From: Chthonomonadaceae bacterium
GTDB taxonomy: Bacteria; Armatimonadota; Chthonomonadetes; Chthonomonadales; Chthonomonadaceae
DNA: 64,000 nucleotides
Assembly (NCBI GenBank): GCA_965246955.1
Contig: CBDFGA010000004.1
Coordinates: forward strand, 1,888,100 to 1,952,099
Reading direction: 5' to 3'
The position numbers were made by a program, and so were the translations under genes. The notes under the pieces are model-generated. The model did no database searches, was not told the origin of the DNA, and saw only the letters and a program-made list of their open reading frames with translations. Below are positions 2,926-48,666 of the stretch, one piece after another (position 1 is the stretch's first letter; each line of letters opens with the position of its first letter).

Positions 2926-4284
2926 ATGACCGACCCAACCGCCGCCAACTCCCCCGCTCCGCCCCCCGATGAACTCGCCGCTCTGCTGCAACTGGGCCAG
3001 CTCCTTAATTCCAGCCTGGACTTAAAGCACGTTCTGGAGACCGCCATTGAGCAGGTCATTGCGTTTGTCGGGGCGGAACGCGGCTTTATTCTGCTGGTGG
3101 ACGTGGAAAGCGGGCGCGTGTGGGGCGAGGCTCTCCGCAACATCGAAAAGGCGGCGCTGGAGGCCACCCTTTCCGGGGCGGACGAACACAACCGGGCGGA
3201 GATTAGCCGCTCGCTTGTGGAAAGCGTACTGGAAACGCGCCGCCCCGTGCTGGCCCACAACGCGATGGAAGACCCGCGCTTCGCGAACCGGCAGAGCGTG
3301 CAGCTTTCCAGCCTACGTTCCGTTCTGTGCGTTCCGCTGCTGGCGCAGGGGCGTTTGCTCGGAATCATCTATCTGGATAACCGCATTAAATCCGGCGTTT
3401 TCACCGATCACCATCTTTCGCTGCTGTCCGCTTTTGGCAATCAGGCGGCGGTCGCGCTGGAAAACGCCCGCCTTTACGACAATCTGCGCCGCTCCCTCGA
3501 AGAGCGAATCCGATTGCAGGACGAACTGCACCAGCAGGAGACGCAGCGGATCGCCTTAGAGGAAGCCAGCCGCTTAAAATCCGACTTTATCGGGTTTGTG
3601 GCGCATGAACTCCGCAACCCGCTCACCACGATTCGCGGCTACGTCCAGACCATGATGCAGGACGAAGAGAACACGCTGGGCGAGGAGATCAAGCAGGAAT
3701 TTTACGAGGCGATTGAAGCCGACTCCGACCGCCTGCTGGATATGATTAACGAACTGCTGGACGTATCGCGATTGGAAGCGGGGCGTCCGCTGTCGCTGGC
3801 CCTCAAAACGTTCGAACTGCGCCCGCTGCTGGAAAAACTGGCCCGCCGCCACCGCTTTTACAAATTTTTCACCCGCAAGCACGAAATGATTACCGACCTC
3901 GCGCCCGACCTGCCGGAAATGATTGAGGCGGACGAGGACAAGCTGAATCAAGTCTTCTCCAACCTCCTCTCCAACGCCATCAAATACTCGCCTGACGGGG
4001 GACAAATTCGTCTCTCCGCTGCCCGCGAAGGCGATGCAGTTCTGATTATTGTCAAGGATTCCGGCGTAGGAATGACCGCAGAACAGGCGGGCAAACTGTT
4101 TCAGCAGTATGAGCGTCTGGAGCGCGACGACATCAAAAACATTCCCGGAACCGGGCTTGGCCTGTATCTCGTGAAGCATCTGGTCGAAATGCACGGCGGC
4201 AAAATTTGGGCGGAAAGCCAGCCCGGACAGGGCAGCGCGTTCCATGTCGAACTCCCAATAAAAATGATGAATCATGAACGATGA
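2926..4284 (+). CDS. GAF-domain sensor histidine kinase
   Basis: GAF region followed by HisKA H-box (HELRNPLTTIRGY) and HATPase N/G boxes (GTGLGL). Start at 2926 has an AAGGA SD; 2902 is the alternative. Last eight codons lie inside repeat D1. Confidence 0.8.
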   Translation: MTDPTAANSPAPPPDELAALLQLGQLLNSSLDLKHVLETAIEQVIAFVGAERGFILLVDVESGRVWGEALRNIEKAALEATLSGADEHNRAEISRSLVESVLETRRPVLAHNAMEDPRFANRQSVQLSSLRSVLCVPLLAQGRLLGIIYLDNRIKSGVFTDHHLSLLSAFGNQAAVALENARLYDNLRRSLEERIRLQDELHQQETQRIALEEASRLKSDFIGFVAHELRNPLTTIRGYVQTMMQDEENTLGEEIKQEFYEAIEADSDRLLDMINELLDVSRLEAGRPLSLALKTFELRPLLEKLARRHRFYKFFTRKHEMITDLAPDLPEMIEADEDKLNQVFSNLLSNAIKYSPDGGQIRLSAAREGDAVLIIVKDSGVGMTAEQAGKLFQQYERLERDDIKNIPGTGLGLYLVKHLVEMHGGKIWAESQPGQGSAFHVELPIKMMNHER

Positions 4285-4367
4285 ATAATGAATCCAATAC
4301 GCCCGCTTGCTCGCCACATTCACGAATAGCAAGCGGGCGCATTTTGATTCATCATTCATCATTTTCC
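4264..4367. repeat. MITE-like palindromic element, family D (GAATGAT heptad arms), copy 1
   Basis: Terminal inverted repeats atgatgaatcatgaacgatgaataatgaatcc / ggattcatcattcatcat. Inner palindrome cgcccgcttgct..agcaagcgggcg. Second copy at 47304-47406. Confidence 0.8.
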
Positions 4368-5736: not shown

Positions 5737-6204
5737 ATGGCGCATACGATGATTGAAGGCGATATGATGGCGGGCGGAATTTCGCTGGCGATTGTGGTCA
5801 GCCGGTGGAATGAGTTCTTGACGAAAGAATTGCTGGCGGGGGCGTTAGACGCGCTGCGGCGGCACGGCGCGGACGATTCAAAAATTACGGTCGCGTGGGT
5901 CCCCGGCAGCTTCGAGATTCCAGTGGCGGTACAGGCGCTGGCGAAATCGGGGAAGTACGACGGAATTGTGGCGCTGGGCGCGGTGATTCGCGGGGCCACA
6001 AGCCACTACGACCATATCGCGGGGGCGGTCACGAGCGGCCTCTCCCGCATTGCGCTGGACACGGGCCTTCCCGTCGCGTTCGGCGTCCTGACAGTGGAGA
6101 GCATTGAGCAGGGCATCGAGCGCTCCGGCAGCAAAGCGGGCAACAAAGGCGCGGAAGCGGCCCTCGTCGCGGTCGAAATGGCGAATTTGCTGAAGAAGTT
6201 TTAG
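5737..6204 (+). CDS. ribH: 6,7-dimethyl-8-ribityllumazine synthase
   Basis: Lumazine synthase fold motifs (VVSRWNEF, GAVIRGATSHYD). Confidence 0.9.
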   Translation: MAHTMIEGDMMAGGISLAIVVSRWNEFLTKELLAGALDALRRHGADDSKITVAWVPGSFEIPVAVQALAKSGKYDGIVALGAVIRGATSHYDHIAGAVTSGLSRIALDTGLPVAFGVLTVESIEQGIERSGSKAGNKGAEAALVAVEMANLLKKF

Positions 6205-6314
6205 GTATTCAGGTGTTCGGTGTTCGGGTGTTCAGGTACTGGTCGCTTTCGTGGTAATTTGTATAAACTTTCATCGGTGAGATAAACGCCTGAACACCGA
6301 ACACCTGAACACCC
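6205..6314. repeat. MITE-like palindromic element, family A (GGTGTTC heptad arms), copy 1
   Basis: Arms attcaggtgttcggtgttcgggtgttcaggt / cctgaacaccgaacacctgaacaccc. Fills the ribH-ribE gap. Confidence 0.8.
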
Positions 6315-6937: not shown

Positions 6938-7119
6938 TTTTGCCGCATCGAAGCATAACAATCGAATTTTCAGCCCCGTGAAACGCATCGCCCCAAACCC
7001 TGCGTATAGAACGGGGCGCGATTCTGCGCCATATACCGGTCGCTCCGGCAATCGTCCAAAGGCCGGAACGACAATTTTCTGCCAAATACTGTGTCGTTTT
7101 CCACGAAAGGAATTGCGCT

Positions 7120-8370: not shown

Positions 8371-9290
8371 TGAGCGTCCCGGCCTTATTTTTCCCGGAAC
8401 AGTTTGCGGGGCTGGAAACGGAGGCGCGAAACCCGCGCACCGCCGATCTGGACACGCTTGCGATTCCTGAACTGGTGACGCGGCTGCACGCGGAGAATTT
8501 CTTGGTGGCGGACGCGGTGCAAAAAACGCTGCCGGAGATCGCCCGCGTCGTGGAAATTCTGGCGGCGCGGCTGGGAAACAATGGGCGGCTGTTTTATGTC
8601 GGGGCAGGGACGAGCGGGCGGCTGGGCGTACTGGACGCAAGCGAGTGTCCGCCGACTTTTGGCGTTTTGCCGGAATTGGTTCAGGGGATTATCGCGGGCG
8701 GCGCTGCCGCCCTCACCCGCTCCATTGAGGGCGCAGAGGACAGCGCGGAAATGGGCGCGACCGACCTGCGGGAACGCGGCGTTACTGTCGCCGACGCGGT
8801 AATCGGCATTGCGGCGAGTGGACGAACGCCTTATGTCATCGGGGCGTTGGACGCGGCGCGGGAGATTGGCGCGGCGGCGTTCGCGGTGACAAACGTTTCC
8901 GATTCGGAACTCTCGCGCCACGCGGAGATTACCATTGCCGCCGTGACCGGGCCGGAACCGCTGACCGGTTCCACGCGCCTGAAAGCGGGAACAGCGCAAA
9001 AAATGGTCTTGAATATGCTGACGACCGCCGCCATGATTCGCCTCGGCAAGGTCTATGACAACCTCATGGTGGACGTTTGCGCCACAAATGAAAAACTCCG
9101 CGACCGCGCCGTCCGAATTGTGATGTCCGCGACGGGCGCTGATAGGCAGGCGGCGGAAGCGGCGCTGATCGAAGCGCAGGGCGGCGTGAAGACGGCGATT
9201 GTCCTGCTCGCCTGCCGGGTCTCCGCGTCCGAAGCGAAGGCGCGGTTAGACGCGGCGGGGGGCTGGGTGCGGACGGCGCTCATTGCGTAA
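8370..9290 (+). CDS. murQ: N-acetylmuramic acid 6-phosphate etherase MurQ
   Basis: SIS domain, GAGTSGRLG motif. ATG overlaps the upstream stop (TAATG). Confidence 0.85.
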   Translation: MSVPALFFPEQFAGLETEARNPRTADLDTLAIPELVTRLHAENFLVADAVQKTLPEIARVVEILAARLGNNGRLFYVGAGTSGRLGVLDASECPPTFGVLPELVQGIIAGGAAALTRSIEGAEDSAEMGATDLRERGVTVADAVIGIAASGRTPYVIGALDAAREIGAAAFAVTNVSDSELSRHAEITIAAVTGPEPLTGSTRLKAGTAQKMVLNMLTTAAMIRLGKVYDNLMVDVCATNEKLRDRAVRIVMSATGADRQAAEAALIEAQGGVKTAIVLLACRVSASEAKARLDAAGGWVRTALIA

Positions 9291-10226
9291 TCAAGTCGCA
9301 AGGCACGCTTCCAGCAGCGTCAACGTTCGGGATTGCGCGTCGAGGCGGGCGCGGATTCCCAGCGGCAGGGTGAGCGGGTTAGGGGCGTGACCGAACGGGA
9401 AACCGAAGAGGGCGGGGCGGTTCAGCGGCGTGAAAGTGTCCCGCCACAGCGAATCGGGCGTATTGATTTCCGGGCGGGCTTCCTGTTTTTGCCAGCCGGT
9501 GATTTCCCCGATAACAAAGCCCGCCGCCGATTGCAATAGCCCCGCATTCTTCAACTGCGTCAGGCAGCGGTCGGCGCGGTAAACCGCTTCGCCGACATCT
9601 TCAATCAAAACTAGTTTGTCCGTGAAATCGGGCGCGTCCGGCGTACCGCAGGCCGAGGCCAGCAAGGTAAGGCAGCCGCCCGCAAGCTCCCCCTCCACCA
9701 TGCCGCCGACAACCGTCTGCAAATTTTCCGAAGCGACAGGATATTCCCCGAAAGGTTCCATCACTTCTAAAATCCGCCAGAAAACGGACTGCGCCGCTGC
9801 GTCGCATTTTGCCAGCGTGGTCAGCATCGGGCCGTGAAATGTCACCAGTCCGCAGCGTCGCGCCAGCGCCAGATGCAGCGAGGTCACATCGCTGTACCCG
9901 ACGAAGATTTTGGGGTTGGCCCGAATTGCACTCCAGTCCAGCAAGTCCAGCAGGCGCATTGCTCCGTAGCCGCCGCGAACGCAGAAAATCGCTTTGACTT
10001 CCCGATGGGCAAAAAGGCGGTCCAGGTCAGCGGCGCGGTCGGCGTCACTGCCCGCCAGATAGCCGCAATGGAGCGCGGCATCCAGAACGCTTTTACCCAG
10101 CGCCACCCGATAGCCCCGCGCCTCCAGAAGCCGAACGCCCGCCGCAACCGTATCGGCGTCGGCAGGGCTGGCCGGGGCCGCAATCCCAATCAAATCGCCG
10201 GAACGCAGCGCTTTCGGTCGAATCAA
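9291..10226 (-). CDS. ldcA: LD-carboxypeptidase (peptidase S66, LdcA-like)
   Basis: S66 motifs (GYSDVTSLH, VLIEDVGE). Likely TTG start with AGGAGG SD. Longer ORF-track start runs into repeat C1. Confidence 0.75.
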   Translation of the reverse strand: MIRPKALRSGDLIGIAAPASPADADTVAAGVRLLEARGYRVALGKSVLDAALHCGYLAGSDADRAADLDRLFAHREVKAIFCVRGGYGAMRLLDLLDWSAIRANPKIFVGYSDVTSLHLALARRCGLVTFHGPMLTTLAKCDAAAQSVFWRILEVMEPFGEYPVASENLQTVVGGMVEGELAGGCLTLLASACGTPDAPDFTDKLVLIEDVGEAVYRADRCLTQLKNAGLLQSAAGFVIGEITGWQKQEARPEINTPDSLWRDTFTPLNRPALFGFPFGHAPNPLTLPLGIRARLDAQSRTLTLLEACLAT

Positions 10227-10268
10227 ATCGGCCTCCTGAAGAAAGGAAACAGGGAACAGAAAATACTT

Positions 10269-10409
10269 TATCCACGAAACGACACGAAGGGACACGAAAA
10301 AAGGAAATTCGACAAGAGGAAAAATCCAATCATTATCCTGTCAATCCTGAAAATCCCGTCAATCACGTCTAAATTCTTCTTCGTGTCCCTTCGTGTCCTT
10401 TGTGGATAG
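10269..10409. repeat. MITE-like element, family C (ATCCACGAAACGACACGAAGGGACACGAA arms), copy 1
   Basis: About 30-bp terminal inverted repeats. Inner aatcctgaaaatcccgt motif shared with copy 3. Other copies at 25295-25450 and 26150-26276. Confidence 0.85.
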
Positions 10410-10429
10410 AACGCATTTTTCGCTTTGAG

Positions 10430-11197
10430 TCAGCGCGGCAGCAAAATGGGCAGGGCGCGGGCGGGCGAGGCGACGGAATTTCGCGGCGCGGGGATTTGTC
10501 CCTCGTCCAGTTTTTCCATTGCGCCGACTGTCCAGGGGCGGGACTGTCCCACGAGAATCAGGCCGCTTTCCGTTAGACGCGCAATGCGGAATCGCCCGAT
10601 GTACTCCCCAACGCGGCGGTACACCGTCTGATCCAATTTTCCGGAACCCTCTTTGCCGCCGTTTTTCAGCGCAATCGTAAGCTGCGCGACCCGTTCCTGA
10701 CCGGCCTGATACACGCCGTCCAGCGTCACTTCGAGCGGCGGCGCAGCGACCATCTGCGCAACGGTCTGCGGCGGCGGGTTGTAGGCGGGGATGGGGGGGA
10801 AATTCGGAATCGGGCGCGTCTTGACGGTCGGCAGACTGCGCGTGACCTGCGGTTCCACTTTCGCAATCTGAATCGGGGCGGCAATCGTGCGGAAAGCGTC
10901 GGTATGCCCCCCGAAACTCGCGCCTACGCTGACGGGCGCGTCTGTGTCAATCGTATCGTCGAAGCGGCGCATCTGTCCTGGATTGCCCGCGCCTGCGATG
11001 ACCGTTCCCGTCCCGATGGGCGCAGCGGCGGGCGTTCCGCTCCCTGTCGCAGGATTGGCGGCAGGATTCGTCACGGTGGACGCCGTGTCTTTCGGGGCAA
11101 GCGCGGGAATCAACCGCGCAGCCGCAATAATCAAAATGACCACGATTCCAATAATTAGCCCGATAATCTTGGGCCGGTCTTCTGGTTTAGTTTGCAT
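10430..11197 (-). CDS. PilP-like pilus assembly protein (N-terminal TM, Pro-rich linker)
   Basis: C-terminal RVGEYIGRFRIARLTESGLIL resembles the PilP beta-domain. Located immediately downstream of the secretin. Confidence 0.45.
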   Translation of the reverse strand: MQTKPEDRPKIIGLIIGIVVILIIAAARLIPALAPKDTASTVTNPAANPATGSGTPAAAPIGTGTVIAGAGNPGQMRRFDDTIDTDAPVSVGASFGGHTDAFRTIAAPIQIAKVEPQVTRSLPTVKTRPIPNFPPIPAYNPPPQTVAQMVAAPPLEVTLDGVYQAGQERVAQLTIALKNGGKEGSGKLDQTVYRRVGEYIGRFRIARLTESGLILVGQSRPWTVGAMEKLDEGQIPAPRNSVASPARALPILLPR

Positions 11198-11213
11198 AGT
11201 TTTTATACCTCAA

Positions 11214-11442
11214 TTCAGGTGTTCGGGTGTTCAGGTGTTCGCCGCGTGTTGAAAACACCCGTCTGTGTAGCCTGCGGCTTCGTGTCCTTCGGACACACCA
11301 ATCAGGTTTTGACTGCTGCATCCGAAGGACGCGAGGCGCTTGCGCCACACAGACGGGTATATGTTGATGGGTAACACTTGGTCGCTGGTCGCCGACGGGT
11401 GTTTTCAACACGCTGCGTCAATCCTTGAACACCTGAACACCT
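11214..11442. repeat. Composite MITE-like element, family A arms with nested inner palindromes, copy 2
   Basis: Outer arms ttcaggtgttcgggtgttcaggtgttc / gaacacctgaacacc. Inner inverted repeat cgtgttgaaaacacccgtc. Occupies the whole pilQ-pilP intergenic gap. Confidence 0.8.
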
Positions 11443-11444
11443 TC

Positions 11445-13289
11445 CTAATCCGTGAGCAGGTGCGGCGTCACAAAGACCATGACTTCGCGGCGCAGGTGGT
11501 TGTACGTATGGCTGCGGAACAGGTTGCCGACAAACGGAATATCGCCGAGCAATGGAATTTTCGTCAGCGTTTTCGTGTCCTCTTCTTGAAGCAGGCCGCC
11601 GATGACCAGCGTTTCGCCGCTGCGGATTCGCACCGTCGTTTCCGCCTCGCGAGAAAACGTGCTGAATAGTCCCGTGCGGGAGTCTACCGCCCCGGCGCTG
11701 CTGTAAATCGGGTGGACGTGCAGGGTGATTTTGTCGTCTTCGTTCAGCCGCGCCCGCATCTGCAAAATAATCCCGACGGGGATTTCCACCACGCTGTTCA
11801 GGACGATGCTGTTGCCCGTTCCGACGTTCGTGGGAATAGTGGAAACGCTGACGCGCCGCGTCTCACCGACAAATACCACGCCCTCCAGATCGTTGAGGGC
11901 CGTGATCGTGGGTTTGGCGAGGACGTGAACGTCCTGCCGCTGAAAGAAAGCGTTCAGCGTCCCGGTGATGTTGGCGGACGTGCCGGTAATTGCTCCGTTT
12001 GCGATTCGCAAAATCCCCTGCGTGACGCCCGTGCCTGCTGAGTTGAGACTACCCGTCCAGTCCACGCCCAGCGTCTGCGCGGTCGTCGGACTGGTGCTAA
12101 CGACTTTGACATCCAGCACAATCTGCGGAGTCGGCGTGTCCAGTTTCGCAAGCAACTCCTGCGCGGCGCGGACGGCCTGTTCCGTGCCGCCAATGATAAT
12201 GGATCGGTAGCGTTCGCCGCCGCCATTCTGTCCCGTTCCGCTGCTGGAACTGCTGCCGCCCGAACCGCCTCCGCTTGAGCCGCCCGACGATCCGCCGGAA
12301 CTGCCGCCCGATGAGCCGCCGCTGCTGGAAGACCCGCCGGAACTGCCGCCTGATGAGCCGCCGCTGCTTGATCCGCCCCCCGAACCGACCGCCGAGTTAG
12401 AAGTTGTCAGGGCCACGTCGCGCAGGGGAATGAAGTAAGACGCAGGGCCGGGAACGACCGTCACATTCAGCGTCGTTTGCCGCAGCGTATTGACCAGACT
12501 AAGCGGGCTGGCGTATTTTACCTGATAGACGAAATACCGCGTGTTCGCCTCTTTGCCTTTGTCCAGTTCCCGCATGAAGGTCTGCGCCCGCTCCACGTCG
12601 CTGCGCTTGCCGGTGAAGACAACGGCGCTCTCACCCGCCTTTTGCGCGTCCAACTTAAATTGCGTCGTTAAAATCTGCTGCGCATCGGCGACGGGAATTG
12701 TGCTTAACGTAAGCGAGACGCTTTCCAGCGGTTCGCCGGAATAGGGCGCGTCGAGTTCCTGCAAGATGCCCCGCGCCTGATCTAAGTCCTGCGGCGCTCC
12801 AATTAAAATGATACTGCGGGCGGCGGCCCGCGCCGTCACGAAGGGGACTGCCGCATGAATCTGTTCGGCAATGTCCTTGATCTTCGCCGTGTCGGTCACG
12901 TTTTGCAGCGGAACGCGCTCCTGCGTCCCGTATTTTGCCAGAATATCGGGCATCTCCTTGTCCGGGGCCACGATGTAGACATTGCCGACGCGCCGGTAGG
13001 AGGCGTTGGCCTGCGCCGAGACCAGTTTCATGGCGTCGTCCACGCTGGCGTCGTTCAGGTTCACGCTGACGATTTTTTTCAGGTCTTCCGTCGTGACAAT
13101 GCCGACTCCGGCGATTCGGGCCAGAGCGTCCAGCACTTTGGACGCCTCCGCCCGAAAAACGAAATGGTCAATCCGCTTTTCTGTCGCTCCCGCGTGGGAG
13201 CCGCGTCCGGCAGCCGTTTGCGCCAGCGGACTGGCAACGGGAAGTAAGAGCGCAAACGCCGCAATGGGCAGAGATTTATGAGTTCGCAT
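11445..13289 (-). CDS. pilQ: Type IV pilus / T2SS secretin (PilQ/GspD family) with Gly-Ser low-complexity insert
   Basis: Signal peptide. Secretin C-domain (VIGGLLQEEDTKTLTKIPLLGDIPFVGNLF). GS-rich tract encoded by repetitive DNA around 12240-12400. Confidence 0.9.
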   Translation of the reverse strand: MRTHKSLPIAAFALLLPVASPLAQTAAGRGSHAGATEKRIDHFVFRAEASKVLDALARIAGVGIVTTEDLKKIVSVNLNDASVDDAMKLVSAQANASYRRVGNVYIVAPDKEMPDILAKYGTQERVPLQNVTDTAKIKDIAEQIHAAVPFVTARAAARSIILIGAPQDLDQARGILQELDAPYSGEPLESVSLTLSTIPVADAQQILTTQFKLDAQKAGESAVVFTGKRSDVERAQTFMRELDKGKEANTRYFVYQVKYASPLSLVNTLRQTTLNVTVVPGPASYFIPLRDVALTTSNSAVGSGGGSSSGGSSGGSSGGSSSSGGSSGGSSGGSSGGSSGGGSGGSSSSSGTGQNGGGERYRSIIIGGTEQAVRAAQELLAKLDTPTPQIVLDVKVVSTSPTTAQTLGVDWTGSLNSAGTGVTQGILRIANGAITGTSANITGTLNAFFQRQDVHVLAKPTITALNDLEGVVFVGETRRVSVSTIPTNVGTGNSIVLNSVVEIPVGIILQMRARLNEDDKITLHVHPIYSSAGAVDSRTGLFSTFSREAETTVRIRSGETLVIGGLLQEEDTKTLTKIPLLGDIPFVGNLFRSHTYNHLRREVMVFVTPHLLTD

Positions 13290-13317
13290 GGGTTTCTCCT
13301 GAAGAAGATATTATGCA

Positions 13318-13375
13318 TTAGATACCAGATATTAGGAACAATAACTAATATCTGGTATCTAGTATCTAATATCTC
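13318..13375. repeat. AT-rich perfect 16-bp inverted repeat (agataccagatattag / ctaatatctggtatct), family G
   Basis: Lies between pilO-like stop and pilQ start. Extra partial arm agtatctaatatct. Confidence 0.7.
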
Positions 13376-14048
13376 ACCTGGCTTGCGGCGGCGCGGGGGC
13401 CGCATCCGGTTTGTACACGAAACGGGTCAGCAGCAGGGTGGCGTGCAGTTCGCCGGTGGCGCTGTCGCCGCCATTGATTTGCAGGCTGTTGATATTGATG
13501 GCGCGGGGCGCTCCATAGCGCACGCCGCCCCCGCTAAAGCGATAATTGTACAGATTGCGCACAAACGTATTGATATTTGGAAAAGACCCGACGACGATCA
13601 GCGTGGTTGACAGCGGGCGGACGCCGAGCGGCAGACTGGTCAGCGAGTAGCCCGCTTTTTTGTCGTCCTCTTTTTTTGATGCGCTGGACGCGCCGGTTTT
13701 CGCCCCCGCCGCCTGCGTCCCAATCGTCGGAAGCGCCGACGGAACTGCCGGAACGATGCTCGTAGGGCGGACGCCGGAAGTCTCCATCAGCCGCTTTAAC
13801 TGCCCGTAAAACTCCGGGTCTTCGCGCATGGTGTCAGGCGCGGCGAGTCGCCGCGTCACGTCCTTGAACTGCGACTGGAGGGTAATCCGGTTCTGCTCCT
13901 GAATGGCGATATTGCGGCTGGTCTGTTGCTGCTCCTGTTTCGCGGTGGTGTAGCGTCCCCACTGATACCACCCGAAACCGAAGGCGATAATCAGCGCGAC
14001 GCTCCACGTAATCCAGGTCAAAATCGTCGTTAAATTGAAGCGCCCCAT
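13374..14048 (-). CDS. PilO-like (GspM-like) pilus assembly protein
   Basis: Single N-terminal TM, then coiled coil and periplasmic domain. AAGGAG SD before ATG at 14048. ORF-track start 14087 is an alternative. Confidence 0.6.
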   Translation of the reverse strand: MGRFNLTTILTWITWSVALIIAFGFGWYQWGRYTTAKQEQQQTSRNIAIQEQNRITLQSQFKDVTRRLAAPDTMREDPEFYGQLKRLMETSGVRPTSIVPAVPSALPTIGTQAAGAKTGASSASKKEDDKKAGYSLTSLPLGVRPLSTTLIVVGSFPNINTFVRNLYNYRFSGGGVRYGAPRAININSLQINGGDSATGELHATLLLTRFVYKPDAAPAPPQAR

Positions 14049-14090
14049 AAGGCTCCTTGCCGCGCTGCGGCCTGCGCGAATCGGCATTGA

Positions 14091-15806
14091 TTACAGCGGG
14101 CTGTTTTCGCTTTGCAGCGCCGCCTGCGTTCCGCTCAACGCCGTTTCGATGCGAAACGTCGTGATATGCGTCACCGGGTCGGAAGTGACCGTCTGCGCCC
14201 GTGTCCCGACGAAATGCGGGCAGGTGCGCAGCGTCAGATAATACAGATTAAATTCCTGCAAGTCGCGGGCGCTGCCCTCGACCGAGATTTTGCCGCCGCG
14301 CTCAATTTGAAGGTTTTTCAGCCCGACGCCCAGCGGCAATTCTTTTGTGACCTGATCCATGATGGCGGGCATTGGCAGGTTATCGCTTTTCACGATCCAG
14401 CCCAGCGCCTGCTCGTCCTGAATTTTCCTGTCCAGCACGGAGTAGTCCTGCTGATTCAGCGCGTACTGTTTCCGCAGGCGCTGCAATTCGTCGTTCTCCC
14501 CGTTGGCGCTGCGCCCGATCATCAGGCCGGAGAAGAAGCCGCCAATCAGGATGCAGATCGCCCCGATCATGACGGCGGTCAGGCGGTCGCGCTCAATAAT
14601 CGGCGTGGTGGAAGTCGCCGTCGTCGCCAGATTAAAGTGGGGGACCGCCCGCGATTCGGGCATGACGGCGTACTGCGCGAGGCCCAAAGCCCCCAGATAT
14701 TTCAAACCCTGCGGGGCCTGAAGCATCGCCGCGATTTCCGACGGCGAACCGGCGTCCAGCGGCGGCTCAACGACGCTCACATCGAGTTGCAGCGATTGCG
14801 TCAGCCACGAAGCGATGTCCGCCGCCTCCGGGTCGTTGGAGGTCAGCACAATGCGCGTAATCGGTGTGGCGGCGGGAAACTCCCGCTGATAATAGTCAAG
14901 CGAGCGCTGCACCTCATTAGAAAGCGAGGCCGCCGCCTGCGGCGTGACCTTACCGCCCGTCGCGCTGCTGTCAATCGGCGGGAAAGCGCCTGTGCCGCGC
15001 CGACTGTTCAGGTCGCCCGTCTGCAACTCGTCGGTGTCGCCCTCGTCCGGGTTCAGCATGATGCGCGGCGGGCGGGCGGGCGTCGGGACGCCAAAATCCA
15101 TCGAAAGGTCGGCGGAACCGGGAATCCGGGAGGACGCGGTGCGCCGCCCCTTGATGAAATCGTCGCTGCCCTGATCCAGACGGCGGTATAGCCGAATCCG
15201 CCCCTGATCCAGAATCGAGAGTTCCGAGCGCGTCGGGGTGACGGCGAGGCACAGCGTGGACGGGGCGCTCTGGAGCAGAGGATAGGCGGCGCGAAACAGG
15301 GCCAGCGTAATCGGTTCCAGCGCGATGAATTGCAGCCCTGCGCGTTCTACTACCGCGCGGAATCCCTGCGCCACGCGGTCTTCTGTCGCCATCAGCAGCA
15401 CGGACGGCAGGGCCTCGGTGGGGCCGGGAAGGCTGTCCATGCGGAAAAAGTCGAACGCGCCCGCGCCCTGCCGCAAAATCTGGTAGTGGGCCAGTTCGCC
15501 CTCCAGCACGACGCGCAGTTCCGATTCGGGGACGCGGGGGATGTCCATGACGCGGGTCACGACGCTTTGCAGCCCCATTCCGATCACGACAGCGCGGGAC
15601 TGACACCCGATGCGGGCGTGGAGGCCGCGCAGCAAGTCCGCCACCGCCTCGACCTGCGCGATGCGGTCGCCGTCCACCGCACCGGCAGGCAGCGGCACGG
15701 AACTGGCGCGAATGACCTGCGGCGGGTTGCCGCCGCGCATCTCCACCAGCCGGATTTCTCGCGGGCCTATCTCAATTCCCAGCGCTGTGCGTCTCTGAGT
15801 CGCCAT
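14091..15806 (-). CDS. PilM-PilN fusion protein (actin-like ATPase fold + TM + periplasmic domain; GspL analogue)
   Basis: N-terminal PilM-like region (IGIEIGPREIRLVE). Central TM (AVMIGAICILIGGFF) then PilN-like coiled coil. Alternative TTG start at 15827. Confidence 0.75.
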   Translation of the reverse strand: MATQRRTALGIEIGPREIRLVEMRGGNPPQVIRASSVPLPAGAVDGDRIAQVEAVADLLRGLHARIGCQSRAVVIGMGLQSVVTRVMDIPRVPESELRVVLEGELAHYQILRQGAGAFDFFRMDSLPGPTEALPSVLLMATEDRVAQGFRAVVERAGLQFIALEPITLALFRAAYPLLQSAPSTLCLAVTPTRSELSILDQGRIRLYRRLDQGSDDFIKGRRTASSRIPGSADLSMDFGVPTPARPPRIMLNPDEGDTDELQTGDLNSRRGTGAFPPIDSSATGGKVTPQAAASLSNEVQRSLDYYQREFPAATPITRIVLTSNDPEAADIASWLTQSLQLDVSVVEPPLDAGSPSEIAAMLQAPQGLKYLGALGLAQYAVMPESRAVPHFNLATTATSTTPIIERDRLTAVMIGAICILIGGFFSGLMIGRSANGENDELQRLRKQYALNQQDYSVLDRKIQDEQALGWIVKSDNLPMPAIMDQVTKELPLGVGLKNLQIERGGKISVEGSARDLQEFNLYYLTLRTCPHFVGTRAQTVTSDPVTHITTFRIETALSGTQAALQSENSPL

Positions 15807-15840
15807 TCCGTTGTCAATTCTCCCCAATCAATGCAAAAAT

Positions 15841-15892
15841 GCGGGTGTTCGGGTGTTTAGGTGTTCGGTGTCAATACCGAATACCCGAATAC
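15841..15892. repeat. Family A heptad-repeat element (degenerate), copy 3
   Basis: gcgggtgttcgggtgtttaggtgttcggtgtc..gaatacccgaatac. Confidence 0.6.
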
Positions 15893-20712: not shown

Positions 20713-20722
20713 AGACTGCGCA

Positions 20723-20836
20723 GGGTGTCGGGGTTCGGGTGTCGGGTGTCGAAAAATGCGCTCGCTATCGAAACTTAGTACAGGCTTTGATTGCATGAGA
20801 ATTGTCCGACACCCGACACCCGAACCCCGACACCCT
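20723..20836. repeat. MITE-like element, family B (GGTGTCG heptad arms), copy 1
   Basis: Arms ggtgtcggggttcgggtgtcgggtgtcg / cgacacccgacacccgaaccccgacaccc. Fills the pilB-pilC gap and overlaps the pilB stop. Confidence 0.85.
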
Positions 20837-25280: not shown

Positions 25281-25294
25281 ACTGCGCAAAAAAT

Positions 25295-25450
25295 CTATCC
25301 ACGAAACGACACGAAGGGACACGAAACAAGAGAACAGAAGAAAGGGAAAAGGCGACAGGAAAAAGAAATTCGATCTTTACCCTGTCCACCCTGCAAACCC
25401 CGCTCCTCCTGTCTCTTCTTCGTGTCCCTTCGCGTCATTTCGTGGATAGA
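25295..25450. repeat. MITE-like element, family C, copy 2
   Basis: ctatccacgaaacgacacgaagggacacgaaa ... ttcgtgtcccttcgcgtcatttcgtggataga. Confidence 0.85.
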
Positions 25451-25639
25451 TTTTTTGTGGAACTTTTTGCATCCTTTGCCGGTTGAACGGACGAGGCCCG
25501 CTGACGAATCGTAACCATTTCCCGAACATGAAACGCGGCAAAACATTCGCAACGCGACATTTTGTTGTAATAAACGCAACGGGCTGACAATCGCTTCCGA
25601 TTTTTGTATAATAGGTCGAAGCGATAGGATGAGGGCCAG

Positions 25640-26164
25640 ATGCTGGGAAACACGAAAAACGACAAAACGATTTGTAAACAAAGGACGCTGGATGCGACCG
25701 ACCATCAGATTTTGCGCCTGCTCCACGCAGACGGACGCAGGACGCAGGAGAGCATCGCGCACGAGGTTTTCCTTTCCCGCCCCGCCGTCCATGATCGGGT
25801 GAAGCGGCTGGAAGAAACGGGTGTGATTACGGGCTATCAGGCGCAGATTGACTGGCGTAAAGTCGGGCAGGCCCTTTCCCTCTTTGTCTGGGTGCGCACT
25901 TCGGGCGGCAAACTCCACGATCTCGCGGACGCAATTATGACGTTCAGCAACCGCGATACGCTGGTTGAGGAGTGCCACCTCATCACCGGCGACTGGTGTC
26001 TGTTGCTGAAAGTTCGCACCGTCTCCACCACTTCCCTGCAAATTTTGCTTAACCGCCTGCGTGATATGCCCCGCGTCCGCAACACCATGACGACGCTCGT
26101 TCTGTCCTCTGCCGGCGAGAATTTTACCGAAATAGAAACGCAGGATGAGCTATCCACGAAATGA
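25640..26164 (+). CDS. lrp: Lrp/AsnC family transcriptional regulator
   Basis: HTH_AsnC N-terminus (LDATDHQILRLLHADGRRTQESIAHEV) plus RAM domain. Last codons (ELSTK) come from the repeat C3 arm. Confidence 0.85.
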   Translation: MLGNTKNDKTICKQRTLDATDHQILRLLHADGRRTQESIAHEVFLSRPAVHDRVKRLEETGVITGYQAQIDWRKVGQALSLFVWVRTSGGKLHDLADAIMTFSNRDTLVEECHLITGDWCLLLKVRTVSTTSLQILLNRLRDMPRVRNTMTTLVLSSAGENFTEIETQDELSTK

Positions 26165-26276
26165 CACAAAAGAACACGAAAAAAGGGAAGAGGGAAGAAA
26201 ATGCAACCCTAATCCTGAAAAATCCTGTTCATCCTCTCTATTCTTCTTCGTGTCGCTTCGTGTCATTTTGTGGATA
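26150..26276. repeat. MITE-like element, family C, copy 3
   Basis: ctatccacgaaatgacacaaaagaacacgaa ... ttcgtgtcgcttcgtgtcattttgtggataa. Inner aatcctgaaaaatcctgt. Confidence 0.85.
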
Positions 26277-27670: not shown

Positions 27671-27888
27671 TGATGGAAGAACCGGAAAATCAGGGAACAG
27701 AGAACAGGGAACAGGGAACAGGGGAGAAGGAGAATGTGGCGTCTGGCGCGGAGGTCATCGCTGCGCCCCCGTCTGGCGCGGAGGCATCCGCTGTCGCTGC
27801 CCCGTCTGCGCTGGCGGCGGGCTACCCCGTTCCCCAGGAGCAGACCGAGACGGTCGATGTTTTGACGGGAAATGCGGCGGAGCGGGAG

Positions 27889-30558: not shown

Positions 30559-31155
30559 ATGTCTCTGTTTATCGCTTTACTGGTCCTTGGACTAATCGGG
30601 ATGCTGCTGATGGCGATTCCCGGCCTGAATCACGGACACGCGGGAATAGGCTCCCACGTTCCGCCGCACGTTCCGCGCCTGCCCGCCGCGCCCCACGCCG
30701 CCGCGCATCATACGCTGCCCGCCGGACAAAGCTCGTCCCTGACGCGCTTTATCCCCTCGCCCCGCGTGATTTTCGGATTTCTGGCGCTGTACGGCGCTTT
30801 TGGCAATGCGTTTGAGAAAGCGGGGCATTTGCCCGTTTCGCTGGCGGCGCTGGCGGCCATTGTCCCGGCGTTTTTGCTGGAGCGGTACGCGCTCAGTCCT
30901 TTTTGGAACCGCCTGATGGCCTTTCAGGGAACGCCCTGCGCCCCGCTGGAAACACTGGTGATGTGCGAGGCCAAAGCGGTCACGCCGTTCCGCAACGGGC
31001 GTGGCATGGTCAGCGTGGTGTACGAAAACCGACTGGTGCAAATGCGGGCGGACTTGCTGCCCGCCCAAATAGCAATGCCCGTCCGCGTGGGCGACACGCT
31101 GCGGGTCGAAGAAATTGACGGCAAGAATGAGCGGGTCGTGGTCTCGCTAGCATAG
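30559..31155 (+). CDS. NfeD-like membrane protein (stomatin/flotillin operon partner)
   Basis: N-terminal TM helices. C-terminal OB-fold beta region (GMVSVVYENRLVQMRADLL..VGDTLRVEEIDGKNERVVVS). AAAAGGAGG SD. Confidence 0.65.
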   Translation: MSLFIALLVLGLIGMLLMAIPGLNHGHAGIGSHVPPHVPRLPAAPHAAAHHTLPAGQSSSLTRFIPSPRVIFGFLALYGAFGNAFEKAGHLPVSLAALAAIVPAFLLERYALSPFWNRLMAFQGTPCAPLETLVMCEAKAVTPFRNGRGMVSVVYENRLVQMRADLLPAQIAMPVRVGDTLRVEEIDGKNERVVVSLA

Positions 31156-31281
31156 AAAACAGAAAACAGAAAACAGAAAACAGAAGAAAATGCCCGGTCT
31201 GCCAACGTTTCAATCGAAGCGCAAACTTTCCAAACTCGGAACGCCCTTCTGTATTCTGTTTTCTGTTTTCTGTCTTCTTCC
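31152..31281. repeat. MITE-like element, family F (GAAAACA heptad arms)
   Basis: tagaaaacagaaaacagaaaacagaaaacagaag ... cttctgtattctgttttctgttttctgtcttc. Fills the nfeD-flotillin gap. Confidence 0.8.
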
Positions 31282-42843: not shown

Positions 42844-42845
42844 AG

Positions 42846-42958
42846 GGGGTCGGGGTTCGGGTGTCGGGTGTCGAAAAACAAGCTTGTATGCTGAACGTTT
42901 GTAACAATTTCAAGCGAACAAGGCATTGCTCGACACCCGACACCCGAACCCCGACACC
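42846..42958. repeat. MITE-like element, family B, copy 2
   Basis: ggggtcggggttcgggtgtcgggtgtcg ... cgacacccgacacccgaaccccgacacc. Solo arm-like fragment also at 48630-48660. Confidence 0.85.
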
Positions 42959-47303: not shown

Positions 47304-47406
47304 GAATGATGAATGATGAATGATGAATCAAAATGCCTCCTTTGTTATTCGTGAAAACGGACAGCAAACGGGCGTATTAGATTCATCATTCATCATTCAT
47401 CATTTT
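47304..47406. repeat. MITE-like element, family D, copy 2
   Basis: gaatgatgaatgatgaatgatgaatc ... gattcatcattcatcattcatcatt. Lies between rsmI start and MBL gene stop. Confidence 0.85.
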
Positions 47407-48383: not shown

Positions 48384-48614
48384 TCACAGATAATCGCCGT
48401 TCGGGGCGAAAACGCGCCCGCATTTCCAGCAATGCGCGGCGTCTTTCGCCGAAAGGCACTTGCAGCGAGGGCAGCAGCGCAGCTTGATCGGGAACCGCCC
48501 GCACTGCGGGCATTTCAGCGTATTGTCATAGGACAGCCCGCCGCAATGGTCGCAGCAGCCCGAACCATCTGCGCCATTCTGGATTTTGAATTTTGAATTT
48601 TGGATTGCGGTCAT
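48384..48614 (-). CDS. Double zinc-ribbon small protein
   Basis: CCDHCG..CPQCG and CCPRCKC..CWKCG pairs. N-terminus (QNSKFKIQN) encoded by a gaatttt heptad run. Confidence 0.5.
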   Translation of the reverse strand: MTAIQNSKFKIQNGADGSGCCDHCGGLSYDNTLKCPQCGRFPIKLRCCPRCKCLSAKDAAHCWKCGRVFAPNGDYL

Positions 48615-48666
48615 GCGCTTACCCTCTGATGCCCAATACCCGACCCCCGAACCCCGACGCCCGTTC

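What the first reader, a model, noticed from the sequence alone, without database searches (positions are those of the whole stretch)
11214..11442. Heptamer-tandem inverted-repeat elements fill every intergenic gap of the pilus cluster
Families A (GGTGTTC)n and B (GGTGTCG)n have arms built from three or four tandem heptamers. They lie exactly between pilQ and the PilP-like gene (229 bp, with nested inner palindromes), between pilB and pilC (overlapping the pilB stop), after the pilMN gene, and also between ribH and ribE and between lptFG and the DUF3084 gene. Family G is an AT-rich perfect 16-bp palindrome between pilO-like and pilQ. All are inside operons and would be transcribed as long hairpins. 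That suggests a role in mRNA processing, segmental stability or attenuation rather than passive MITEs.
Basis: seen in the sequence. Interest (0 to 1): 0.7.

Follow-up and report, generated by a model that had tools for sequence, protein, structure and literature searches.

The report
Hairpin repeats with tandem-heptamer arms
Many gaps after genes in this Armatimonadota genome hold ~115-bp palindromic repeats whose stems are about four tandem 7-8-base units; they are real and evolve very fast, but they are the kind of intergenic repeat already described in Xanthomonas and cyanobacteria and look like mobile hairpin elements, not purpose-built pilus regulators.

Summary
The 229-bp element at 11214-11442 is real. 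It lies between the pilQ stop codon and the next gene and folds into a -133 kcal/mol hairpin (z = -12). It is a composite: a separate hairpin family ("X") sits inside arms made of tandem GGTGTTCN units, which are octamers, not heptamers. The window holds about 12 such elements, roughly 2.3% of its bases. Their arms are about 4 tandem units of 7, 8 or 10 nt. Several families share a ~55-nt palindromic core. All lie between co-directional genes and start 0-12 nt from the upstream stop codon. They occupy 9-10 of 25 such gaps, not every gap. Relatives show they are insertions. Three outgroups have no such element between pilB and pilC, and one has only 7 nt there. Five genomes of one clade carry a hairpin exactly there, each with a different heptamer (GGGTGTC, GGGAACA, GGGAAAA, GGTGTTA, GGGTGTA), and the two arms stay complementary. 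Sense-strand RNA folds no better than antisense, and no transposase partner was found. The anatomy matches the Xanthomonas GGGNATC / cyanobacterial heptamer repeats (four units, abutting stop codons, convergent pairs). Verdict: a new variant of a known but unexplained kind of repeat, most likely mobile and selfish, with effects on mRNA as a by-product.

The parts
11214..11442 (-). The finding: a composite hairpin element between the pilQ stop and the next gene. The outer arms are tandem GGTGTTCN octamers (family A).
   Evidence: The RNA fold is -133.1 kcal/mol, z = -12. It is absent from the orthologous site in L001, where the blastn alignment breaks at window 11455 and 11213.
11240..11417 (-). 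Inner hairpin element of a different family ('X'), nested inside the A-type arms. It contains a further hairpin at 11277-11337.
   Evidence: Inverted repeats I11 and I12. It is homologous to L005:2155-2375 and L001:16450-16600 (alignment A3).
20722..20836 (-). Family B element between pilB and pilC. The arms are GGGTGTC-GGGGTTC-GGGTGTC-GGGTGTC and start at the pilB TAG stop. It has a ~55-nt core.
   Evidence: Fold -80.7 kcal/mol, z = -12. The orthologous site is filled in L001-L004 and empty in L086.
42845..42958 (+). Family B element between the LptF/G permease gene and the DUF3084 gene. The right arm is identical to that of 20722-20836 and the left arm differs at one base. The core is diverged.
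   Evidence: Fold -75.4 kcal/mol, z = -10. Alignment A5.
6204..6313 (+). Family A element (GGTGTTCN arms) between ribH and ribE. It starts at the ribH TAG stop.
   Evidence: Fold -54.1 kcal/mol, z = -6.7. It is 77.5% identical to L001:2077-2195, which is a non-orthologous locus.
15842..15892 (-). Short family A hairpin without a core, between a pilin-like gene and pilMN. The orthologous site in L001 holds a 267-nt composite with the same 3' arm.
4261..4365 (+). Family C element (GAATGAT arms) between the histidine kinase and HDOD genes. The kinase stop codon lies inside the left arm.
   Evidence: The ortholog in L088 has the same unit but only ~1.5 units per arm.
47304..47404 (-). Family C element (GAATGAT arms) between the Lactamase_B_2 and TP_methylase genes. 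Its core scores far higher against the 4261 core than any other pair of cores (28 against at most 21).
31154..31278 (+). Family D element (AGAAAAC x4.6 arms) overlapping the TAG stop of the upstream gene.
   Evidence: z = -9. The same unit occurs in L090:12386-12499.
13306..13374 (-). AT-rich hairpin (GATATTA-type units) that starts right after the TGA stop of the pilO-like gene, before pilQ.
   Evidence: z = -5.9. The orthologous L001 site holds a partly deleted B-type element.
10273..10401 (-). Family E element. Its arms have a 10-nt period (CACGAAACGA / CACGAAGGGA). It lies between the 255-aa gene and the LD-carboxypeptidase gene.
   Evidence: z = -9.4.
25287..25457 (+). Family E element with 39-nt arms, located after the transketolase gene.
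   Evidence: Gap z = -11.3.
26151..26276 (+). Third, weaker family E copy, located after the AsnC-type regulator gene.
27691..27727 (+). Solo (CAGGGAA) x4.7 array with no inverted partner. This is the same unit that forms the pilB-pilC arms in L001.
   Evidence: No fold (z = 0.8).
48576..48663 (-). Two unlike tandem arrays (GATTTTG-type and B-like CCCGACC-type) that do not pair. Probably a decayed or chimeric element.
   Evidence: z = 0.3. Weak covariance-model hit.

Best explanation
These are non-coding palindromic repeat elements of the REP/MITE type.

Anatomy:
- Each is a DNA palindrome of about 100-130 bp.
- It has two arms of about four tandem 7-, 8- or 10-nt units. The G-rich arm is always on the 5' side.
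- In families A, B and C and their relatives the arms surround a ~55-nt, itself palindromic, core.

Origin and evolution:
- They entered a sub-lineage of this Armatimonadota group and settle at the 3' ends of genes. They fill the space between a stop codon and the next ribosome-binding site.
- The arms behave like microsatellites. Unit number differs between the two arms and between orthologs.
- The arms also behave like terminal inverted repeats. One specific arm sequence is conserved across loci and species while the core diverges.
- Elements nest inside each other, lose parts, and at a given site are replaced or rewritten faster than the flanking DNA changes.

Shown: the anatomy, copy number, insertion polymorphism, position bias, chirality, covariation of the arms, and the lack of a sense-strand RNA signature.

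Inferred:
- They are mobile and essentially selfish. The copying mechanism is unknown.
- When transcribed through, their 30-55-bp RNA duplexes would be cut by RNase III or would block 3' exonucleases. That would split or stabilise operon mRNA segments as a by-product, as is known for REP/BIME and Correia elements (my own knowledge of those families).
For: - About 12 elements in 64 kb have extreme fold energies, z from -6 to -16.
- A homologous core is shared by elements with different arms (alignments A1/A2). A covariance model finds further copies in relatives.
- Empty and filled sites: L086 has pilB-TAG-7 nt-ATG-pilC. L005 and L087 have no heptamer-armed element there. L001 has 39 nt where the window has 247.
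- The filled clade is monophyletic, but the unit types do not follow the tree.
- The same family occurs at non-orthologous loci in different genomes.
- The B-type arm, with the same variant unit, is conserved at 4 loci in 3 genomes while the cores diverge.
- The finding itself is a nested composite.
- Position: 24 elements lie in co-directional gaps, 3 in convergent gaps and 0 in 20 divergent gaps (Fisher p = 0.047). The 5' arm has G>C in 14 of 15 informative unit types.
- 37 of 52 elements have a long open frame ending within 10 nt of an arm.
- There is no sense-strand advantage in RNA folding.
- The same architecture occurs in unrelated bacteria: a Methylomirabilota and an Omnitrophota genome among the 80 control genome loci, and 22 of 120 metagenome contigs that carry GGTGTTYN arrays.
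- It matches the published Xanthomonas/Nostoc heptamer repeats (PMC4692102).
Against: - No target-site duplication is visible at any filled site when compared with the empty sites.
- No autonomous element or transposase with matching ends was found. IS630 in L089 and IS3 in the window have ordinary ends. The L194 lead was a coding repeat.
- A pure-parasite model does not by itself explain three things: why about four units per arm recur in every family, why the G-rich arm is always 5', and why the pilB-pilC hairpin was kept in all five members of the clade while its sequence was turned over.
- Only 64 kb of the source genome and about 150 kb of close relatives could be examined.
Confidence: 0.6

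Rival explanations
1. One reading: selected intercistronic RNA hairpins. They would tune operon expression through RNase III processing, segmental mRNA stability, attenuation, or bridging of a Shine-Dalgarno sequence to the next start codon.
For: - All window copies lie between same-strand genes. They begin at the stop codon and end 9-30 nt before the next start.
- The pilB-pilC hairpin is kept in all five genomes of the clade. Pairing is preserved through changes on both sides: 89% of cells paired, 28 pairs changed on both sides, 0 of 500 shuffles as high.
- In the empty-site relative the pilB 3' end (GGAGGAATAG) is the likely ribosome-binding site of pilC. A self-folding insert could keep the two close.
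Against: - The elements are absent from the same operon in L086, L005 and L087, and the finding's own element is absent from L001.
- Only 9-10 of 25 co-directional gaps carry one.
- They also occur between convergent genes.
- There is no sense-strand folding or G:U bias.
- Core orientation relative to transcription is inconsistent in copies that were not used to build the model.
- Flanking gene pairs are often functionally unrelated.
Confidence: 0.2
2. G-quadruplex-forming regulatory repeats, as proposed for the Xanthomonas GGGNATC and Nostoc GGGGAYT repeats. Four G-tracts on the coding strand just after the stop codon would form a G4 in DNA or RNA.
For: - The B-type arms and all five pilB-pilC variants are (GGGNNNN)x4, with the GGG invariant and the four other positions free.
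- The four-unit preference and the stop-codon position match the published description (PMC4692102).
- The 5' arm is G-rich in 14 of 15 unit types.
Against: - Families C (GAATGAT), D (AGAAAAC), the AT-rich hairpin and E (10-nt units) have the same architecture, position and about 4 units without G-tracts.
- Family A has only GG runs.
- In every case the complementary arm lies 50-130 nt away, and the predicted hairpin is extremely stable.
Confidence: 0.1
3. Palindromes generated locally with no mobility. Polymerase slippage would create the tandem units, and hairpin-templated strand switching would copy each change onto the other arm. On this view every element grew where it lies.
For: - Unit number differs between the arms of one element and between orthologs (window 4261 versus L088; L144 with 10 versus 2-3 units).
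- Whole arms can drift in concert. In L003:2671 the arms are GGTGTCA against GGTATTA. In L134 they are GAACACC against GAAGACC.
- Heptamer slippage has been proposed in the literature (PMC4692102 and PMC4679880).
Against: - The same composite arm, with its variant unit in the same place, occurs at four loci in three genomes.
- Cores are homologous across loci and genomes.
- The empty site shows a clean 7 nt.
- Unit types are incongruent with the species tree.
- The one apparent case of a palindrome growing into a gene (L004) is an assembly fold-back artefact.
Confidence: 0.1
4. Arrays of binding sites for a host or element-encoded protein, with one protein per 7-8-nt unit. Examples would be a cold-shock-type single-strand binder, a nucleoid protein, or a transposase that reads iterated sub-terminal repeats. 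The arms would be the functional part and the core a spacer.
For: - Arm sequence is conserved while the core diverges.
- GGTGTTCN arms occur with many unrelated cores in contigs of 47-70% G+C.
- Arm chirality is fixed.
- About four units recur in all families.
- CspB is reported to bind heptamer direct repeats at one protein per unit (as reviewed in PMC4679880).
Against: - At least ten different units coexist in these genomes, including five at one orthologous site. That would need many specificities, or none.
- No candidate protein gene was found next to any element.
Confidence: 0.1

Closest known systems
Intergenic G-rich tandem heptamer repeats of Xanthomonas (GGGAATC) and Nostoc (GGGGAYT, the cyanobacterial STRR sequences). 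Rehm et al. 2015, PLoS One, PMC4692102.
   Same: - Tandem 7-nt units beginning with a G-tract.
[quoted passage not shown] - 70-75 convergent (inverted) pairs per genome.
- Mostly transcribed.
- The site is kept between related species while length and sequence vary.
   Different: - Here one genome carries many unit sequences, including ones with no G-tract and units of 8 and 10 nt.
- A conserved palindromic core lies between the arms.
- Elements nest.
- The unit is swapped at an orthologous site.
- The host phylum is Armatimonadota.
- The published work did not treat the repeats as mobile and favoured G-quadruplex formation.
REP/BIME and REPIN elements of enterobacteria and pseudomonads (REPINs: Bertels and Rainey 2011, PMC3116915, which I did not read; the rest is my own knowledge).
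   Same: - Abundant extragenic palindromes at the 3' ends of genes and inside operons.
- Mosaic or nested arrangements.
- A REPIN is two inverted repeats around a short spacer that folds into a long hairpin.
- They stabilise upstream mRNA.
- Sites are conserved between species while the sequence is species-specific.
   Different: - REP units are single 20-40-nt imperfect palindromes with a GTAG or CGTC head, not tandem 7-8-nt arrays.
- They are tied to RAYT (Y1 HUH) genes, and none was seen here.
Correia (NEMIS) elements of Neisseria and other bacterial MITEs such as ERIC, RUP and Nezha (my own knowledge).
   Same: - Non-coding elements of 100-150 bp with terminal inverted repeats.
- Hundreds of copies.
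- Co-transcribed with neighbouring genes.
- Their hairpins are cut by RNase III (Correia).
- Presence/absence polymorphism.
   Different: - Those have defined target-site duplications (TA for Correia) and unique, non-repetitive TIRs.
- No duplication is visible here, and the TIRs are microsatellite-like.
TAACTGA heptamer direct repeats of marine Beggiatoaceae and cyanobacteria. MacGregor 2015, PMC4679880.
   Same: - Intergenic tandem heptamers of 2-6 units.
- Patchy phylogenetic spread.
- Unknown mechanism.
   Different: - Those lie just upstream of start codons.
- They are direct arrays. Only one inverted pair was found among 170 sets.
- There is a single unit sequence.

Membership tests
Intergenic tandem-heptamer repeats (Xanthomonas GGGNATC / cyanobacterial STRR type) | Head-to-tail repeats of a 7-nt unit | tested here: met
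   TRF gives period 7 for families B, C, D and the AT-rich hairpin. It gives period 8 for A and 10 for E.
Intergenic tandem-heptamer repeats (Xanthomonas GGGNATC / cyanobacterial STRR type) | Unit begins with a G-tract (GGG or GGGG), so four units give a G-quadruplex motif | tested here: inconclusive
   Met by B and by all five pilB-pilC variants, where GGG is invariant. Not met by C, D, E or the AT-rich hairpin. A has GG only.
Intergenic tandem-heptamer repeats (Xanthomonas GGGNATC / cyanobacterial STRR type) | Preference for about four units per array | tested here: met
   Most arrays have 3.4-4.7 copies, with the right arms of 4261 and 11214 shorter at 2.1-2.4. The pilB-pilC orthologs have four units each.
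Intergenic tandem-heptamer repeats (Xanthomonas GGGNATC / cyanobacterial STRR type) | Between same-strand ORFs, close to or overlapping the stop codon, and depleted between divergent ORFs | tested here: met
   24 co-directional, 3 convergent, 0 of 20 divergent gaps (p = 0.047). Stop-to-arm distances are mostly -3 to +12 nt.
Intergenic tandem-heptamer repeats (Xanthomonas GGGNATC / cyanobacterial STRR type) | Frequent convergent (inverted) pairs | tested here: met
   Nearly all arrays in the window are paired. Solo arrays occur only at 27691 and 48576.
Intergenic tandem-heptamer repeats (Xanthomonas GGGNATC / cyanobacterial STRR type) | G-quadruplex formation in vitro | not testable with these tools
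   This needs CD spectroscopy or chemical probing.
MITE (miniature inverted-repeat transposable element) | Small, non-coding, with terminal inverted repeats, in multiple copies | tested here: met
MITE (miniature inverted-repeat transposable element) | Presence/absence polymorphism at orthologous sites | tested here: met
   L086 has an empty pilB-pilC site. L001 has an empty site after pilQ.
MITE (miniature inverted-repeat transposable element) | Target-site duplication flanking the element | tested here: not met
   No consistent direct repeat flanks any of about 12 elements, nor the filled sites when compared with the empty ones. Divergence of the flanks limits the power of this test.
MITE (miniature inverted-repeat transposable element) | A cognate autonomous element with the same ends that encodes a transposase | tested here: inconclusive
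   None was found in the window, the relatives or 120 metagenome contigs. The rest of the 2.96-Mb genome could not be searched.
REP / REPIN-RAYT system | Single imperfect palindrome of 20-40 nt with a conserved GTAG or CGTC head | tested here: not met
   The arms are tandem arrays and families A-E have no conserved tetranucleotide head. Only the L005 arms contain GTAG.
REP / REPIN-RAYT system | Associated RAYT (Y1 HUH transposase) gene flanked by the repeats | tested here: inconclusive
   No Y1_Tnp domain was found among the 60 window ORFs scanned.
Intrinsic (Rho-independent) terminators | Short G+C-rich hairpin followed directly by a run of T | tested here: not met
   Terminator-like sites are at chance level (19 against 18.3 expected) and none coincides with an element. 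The stems are 25-55 bp long.
Any curated RNA family (Rfam 15) | Match to a covariance model at or near the gathering score | tested here: not met
   There were 0 matches at gathering score. At E<=1 the only matches were chance hits to miRNA hairpin models.

The most novel reading that the evidence does not exclude
The arms are not ordinary inherited sequence. They would be rewritten as a block. A dedicated mechanism would recognise the palindromic core or the stop-codon-proximal site and re-synthesise about four tandem units on both sides from a short template. Alternatively it would precisely replace a resident element by another family member at the same nucleotide. Either route would explain three observations: five different heptamers at one orthologous site with GGG fixed and four positions free, unit types that contradict the species tree, and the constant four-unit length. 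That would be a new kind of site-directed DNA turnover. It might also be the long-sought origin of bacterial heptamer repeats (STRR and the Xanthomonas type).
Probability: 0.12. Interest if true: 0.8.

Novelty: new variant of a known kind. Interest (0 to 1): 0.45.

Why it matters
Tandem heptamer repeats next to bacterial genes have been known since the cyanobacterial STRR work (Mazel et al. 1990, from my own knowledge). They were later catalogued in Xanthomonas, but their origin and role are still unexplained.

This lineage offers a cleaner natural experiment, for four reasons:
- One small genome carries many unit sequences with the same architecture. Some of them cannot form G-quadruplexes, which argues against G4 formation as the general explanation.
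- The arms surround a recognisable core, so copies can be traced.
- Close relatives provide empty sites and five independent versions of one site.
- The data give testable rules: about four units, the G-rich arm on the 5' side, and a start at the stop codon.

Practical consequences:
- These 30-55-bp perfect stems break short-read assemblies. One relative's contig ends in a fold-back artefact.
- They can mislead gene callers, because ORFs run into or start inside the arms.
- If transcribed, they probably cut operon mRNAs into segments.

Tried and rejected
It returned only relatives of 47% identity or less and not the source genome. The 80 loci were reused as a control set.
2. 'The palindrome grows into the pilB coding region' (L004) is rejected. 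That contig ends in a 77-bp perfect inverted repeat, which is an assembly fold-back.
3. G:U wobble as evidence for RNA-level selection is rejected. An apparent case at 48565-48675 does not fold (z = 0.3). Over 31 elements, sense and antisense RNA are equally stable.
4. 'Purine-rich arm first relative to transcription' does not carry information about the strand. In a palindrome, the arm that is 5' is the same on both strands. It was re-expressed as chirality.
5. Core orientation following transcription looked good in the training set. It was mixed in the independent copies (two agreed, four leaned the other way) and the motif test was inconclusive, so I do not claim it.
6. Candidate autonomous elements are all rejected. 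L194 has arms 2 kb apart, but they are a coding repeat in recJ plus an unrelated array. IS630 in L089 and IS3 in the window have ordinary ends.
7. No TA or other target-site duplication was found.
8. Rfam gave nothing at gathering score or at E<=1.
9. A literature search for the arm sequence found 0 papers.
10. GGTGTTYN arrays in viral contigs are almost all unpaired: only 2 G-first and 1 C-first pair in 120 loci. Phage carriage is therefore not supported.
11. The taxonomy of the metagenome contigs that carry A-type hairpins is only suggestive. One looks Armatimonadota-like (79% to a named protein) and one looks Bacteroidota-like by gene content.
12. A sliding-window fold scan timed out. It was replaced by a seed-and-extend inverted-repeat finder.
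Full report
**1. The observation**

Reading 11000-11700 shows the pilQ ORF on the minus strand (11445-13289; Secretin, Secretin_N and STN domains). It ends in TAG at 11445-11447. A 255-aa ORF with no Pfam match starts at 11197.

The 247-nt gap between them is almost wholly one inverted repeat.
- The left arm 11214-11240 is TTCAGGTG x3.4 and the right arm 11426-11442 is TGAACACC x2.1 (Tandem Repeats Finder period 8).
- Inner palindromes lie at 11240-11263/11394-11417 (24 nt, 96% complementary) and 11277-11304/11310-11337.
- The motif GGTGTTCNGGTGTTC occurs 8 times in the window against 0.00 expected from shuffles. The B motif occurs 11 times against 0.65.
- As RNA the gap folds at -133.1 kcal/mol, against -74.7 +/- 4.8 for shuffles (z = -12).

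So the feature is real and far from chance. Its unit is an octamer, not a heptamer.

**2. Census in the window**

Tandem-repeat and inverted-repeat scans and direct reading give about 12 hairpin elements whose arms are tandem short units.
- Family A (GGTGTTCN): 6204-6313, 11214-11442, 15842-15892.
- Family B (GGGTGTC, with one GGGGTTC unit): 20722-20836, 42845-42958.
- Family C (GAATGAT): 4261-4365, 47304-47404.
- Family D (AGAAAAC): 31154-31278.
- An AT-rich hairpin (GATATTA-type units): 13306-13374.
- Family E (10-nt period): 10273-10401, 25287-25457, 26151-26276.
- Remnants: a solo (CAGGGAA)4.7 array at 27691-27727 and a non-pairing double array at 48576-48663.

Together they make up about 1.45 kb, or 2.3% of the window. 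The complete ones fold at -41 to -81 kcal/mol with z from -6 to -12.

Pfam identifies the flanking genes:
- pilB | pilC
- pilin-like gene | pilMN
- pilO-like gene | pilQ
- pilQ | unknown 255-aa gene | LD-carboxypeptidase
- ribH | ribE
- GAF histidine kinase | HDOD protein
- LptF/G | DUF3084 protein
- Lactamase_B_2 | TP_methylase
- transketolase | AsnC regulator | cytochrome b561

Every pair is co-directional. GC3 alone had suggested some convergent pairs, but those were wrong-strand ORFs.

The elements do not fill every gap. Of 25 co-directional gaps of 40-400 nt, 9-10 hold a strongly structured element with z <= -5.7. The 253-nt gap after pilC (19233-19485) has none (z = -0.5).

No Rfam family matches, at gathering score or at E<=1.

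**3. Anatomy**

Aligning the elements shows that the sequence between the arms is not arbitrary. Families A, B and C and the relatives' elements share a ~55-nt core with the consensus AATACGCyCGtTTGCTG-AAGTTTGTACAAACTT-CAA-GAAC-G-GCATT (alignments A1/A2). The core is itself an imperfect palindrome. The whole element is therefore one hairpin of about 115 nt.

A covariance model built from 11 elements finds further copies in relatives.

Arms and core evolve differently. The B-type arm GGGTGTC-GGGGTTC-GGGTGTC-GGGTGTC, with the variant unit in the same place, is conserved at four loci in three genomes, while the cores differ much more (alignment A5; scores).

The finding's own element lacks this core. 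Its interior (11236-11422) belongs to another hairpin family, also present at L005:2155-2375 and L001:16450-16600 (alignment A3). The 229-bp element is thus a nested composite.

**4. Relatives**

PilB of the window is identical to a protein on a 2,957,031-bp NCBI/ENA contig. Named relatives are Chthonomonadales/Armatimonadota.

Contigs encoding PilB at 93, 90, 89, 87, 82, 80 and 73% identity were fetched as L001, L003, L004, L002, L086, L005 and L087.

At the pilB-pilC junction all five closest genomes have a hairpin that starts at the pilB TAG, with four units, a ~55-nt core and four complementary units. The unit differs in each:

| Genome | Unit |
|---|---|
| window | GGGTGTC |
| L001 | GGGAACA |
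| L002 | GGGAAAA |
| L003 | GGTGTTA |
| L004 | GGGTGTA |

The outgroups differ. L086 has just TAG-AAAACTC-ATG. L005 and L087 have no heptamer-armed element there.

A pilB nucleotide tree groups the five filled genomes as one clade, with the empty ones outside. Within the clade the unit types do not follow the tree: the window is sister to L001, yet its unit resembles those of L004 and L003, while L001's resembles that of basal L002.

On the five orthologs, 89% of cells in the predicted helix are paired, against 72% in shuffles and 43-53% when the partner is slid. Twenty-eight pairs change on both sides, and 0 of 500 shuffles reach that. GGG is invariant, while the other four positions of each unit co-vary.

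blastn between L001 and the window aligns coding DNA and the region upstream of pilB at about 84%. The alignment stops exactly at the edges of the elements. The elements therefore turn over much faster than their surroundings.

Further comparisons:
- The finding's element is missing in L001, which has 39 nt there.
- The kinase-HDOD element is orthologous in L088, with the same unit but about 1.5 units per arm.
- The pilO-pilQ site holds an AT-rich hairpin in the window and a half-deleted B-type element in L001.
- L005 lacks elements in its pilus operon but has a heptamer-armed hairpin elsewhere.

One caution: the apparent extension of the L004 palindrome into pilB is an assembly fold-back at the contig end. 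It was discarded.

**5. Rules of position and polarity**

Across the window and eight relatives' loci, 24 elements lie between co-directional genes, 3 between convergent genes and none in 20 divergent gaps (Fisher p = 0.047).

For Pfam-verified genes the arm starts from -24 to +28 nt of the stop codon, and within 12 nt for all but two. It ends 9-30 nt before the next start in most cases, though the gap is 70 and 182 nt after the 4261 and 25287 elements. Over 52 elements, including metagenomic ones, 37 have a long open frame ending within 10 nt of an arm. Some arms carry stop codons, which inflates this figure.

In a palindrome the arm that is 5' is the same on both strands. That arm has G>C in 14 of 15 informative unit types (sign test p = 0.001). 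The families are not fully independent.

Sense transcripts fold no better than antisense ones: 16 against 15 elements, Wilcoxon p = 0.5, with 78 G:U pairs in sense against 120 in antisense.

Core orientation relative to transcription is not consistent in copies outside the model's training set.

A near-consensus promoter lies upstream of pilB, and terminator-like sites are at chance level in the cluster. Read-through transcription is therefore plausible but not shown.

**6. Distribution**

In 1.23 Mb from 80 unrelated genomes (the by-product), heptamer-armed inverted pairs occur in only two.
- A Methylomirabilota MAG has GGTTCAC arms with nested arrays.
- An Omnitrophota MAG has four consecutive gaps of one gene row occupied.

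Twenty-two of the 120 contigs have a complementary array within 300 nt, always with the G-arm first. Their cores are diverse and sometimes recurrent, the contigs range from 47 to 70% G+C, and a stop codon often abuts the first unit.

In viral contigs the same pattern is almost never paired.

Taxonomy of the metagenome contigs is only hinted at: one is Armatimonadota-like and one Bacteroidota-like.

**7. What is known**

Rehm et al. 2015 (PMC4692102) described GGGAATC repeats in Xanthomonas and GGGGAYT repeats in Nostoc. The features they report:
- 2-26 units with a clear preference for four;
- about 90% intergenic, mostly between aligned ORFs and rare between divergent ones;
- 70-75 convergent pairs per genome;
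- mostly transcribed;
- not linked to known mobile elements;
- function unknown, with G-quadruplex formation favoured.

This is the same kind of object. MacGregor 2015 (PMC4679880) describes direct TAACTGA heptamer arrays upstream of start codons, which is a looser analogue.

REP/BIME/REPIN and Correia elements resemble these in behaviour but not in defining features. There is no GTAG head, no RAYT gene seen, and no target duplication. No paper in the library contains the A-arm sequence.

**8. Interpretation**

The evidence best fits a superfamily of non-coding palindromic repeats that spread within genomes and lodge where they do least harm, right after stop codons.
- The arms act as terminal inverted repeats and also slip like microsatellites.
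- The cores, the nesting, the empty sites and the multi-locus families all indicate copying between loci.
- The copying enzyme and the insertion chemistry are unknown. No duplication was seen and no partner transposase was found.

The existence of non-G-tract families with the same four-unit architecture argues against G-quadruplex formation as the general explanation.

Transcribed 30-55-bp duplexes should be RNase III substrates. However, the operon works without the elements in sister lineages, and there is no RNA-strand signature.

What remains truly odd:
- the unit is replaced wholesale at one orthologous site, in a pattern that contradicts the species tree;
- the arm length is fixed at about four units;
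- the chirality is fixed.

These features keep open a more novel, templated or site-directed turnover mechanism.

Noticed in passing
window 34188-35587 (- strand): An IS3-family insertion sequence. OrfA carries HTH_Tnp_1 (35204-35587) and OrfB carries the rve integrase core (34188-35147). Its surroundings show no heptamer-type ends.
   Followed up: partly
window 28700-28940 (+ strand): A small predicted secreted protein with a signal peptide, followed by a Met/His/Lys-rich repeat (KMGKMDKMSHKGKMGHSKMAHKGKMMHGKMSH...). It is encoded by 33-nt tandem repeats just after a molybdopterin oxidoreductase gene. It looks like a periplasmic metal-binding protein.
   Followed up: no
window 28975-29019: A 19-bp, 95% complementary hairpin flanked by A5 on one side and T5 on the other (AAAAAGACCGCCGGACAGT...ACTGACCGGCGGTCTTTTT). 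This is a classic bidirectional terminator shape, unlike the heptamer-armed elements.
   Followed up: no
window 62137-62215: A perfect 39-nt tandem duplication inside the ORF 61837-62259. It duplicates 13 residues (LGGTGESVEARLQ x2), so it is a very recent in-frame duplication.
   Followed up: partly
window 12279-12363: The 24-nt repeats inside pilQ encode a long Gly/Ser linker (SGGGSSSGGSSGGSSGG...) between the N-terminal domains and the secretin domain.
   Followed up: partly
window 37535-38035 and 29360-29755: Toxin-antitoxin-type genes: a BrnT ribonuclease toxin domain and a ParE-like toxin domain.
   Followed up: no
window 19330-19390; L002:18466-18533; L001:16480-16560: A small REP-like hairpin, CCGTCC-N3-4-GGACGG, followed by TTGGCG...CAGACGGG. 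It recurs at non-orthologous sites in three genomes. It appears to be a fragment of the 'X' hairpin family that also forms the interior of the finding's element.
   Followed up: partly
L004:11690-11893 (end of contig): The MEGAHIT contig ends in a 77-bp perfect inverted repeat spanning the pilB 3' end. The assembler turned back at the hairpin. Such elements break or fold back short-read assemblies.
   Followed up: yes
L089:5808-7017: An IS630-family insertion sequence (HTH_23 plus DDE_3) with 32-bp ordinary terminal inverted repeats, located directly after the HDOD gene of a relative. It is unrelated to the heptamer-armed elements.
   Followed up: yes
L075:306-5996 (Omnitrophota MAG) and L006:3103-3276, 14301-14465 (Methylomirabilota MAG): Unrelated phyla show the same architecture. 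In L075 four consecutive gaps of one gene row each hold a hairpin with TCAAAAG-type heptamer arms. L006 has GGTTCAC-armed elements with further tandem arrays nested inside.
   Followed up: partly
window 22955-22983 (- strand): A near-consensus sigma-70-type promoter (TTGACA-17-TATACT, 11 of 12 matches) about 390 nt upstream of the pilB start. This fits a single pilus transcript starting there.
   Followed up: no
L088, L089, L090 versus window 1-16000: Gene order around the HDOD gene is almost wholly different between genomes whose proteins are 82-87% identical. Only the kinase-HDOD pair is kept, and only in L088. Gene order in this group appears to be unusually fluid.
   Followed up: no
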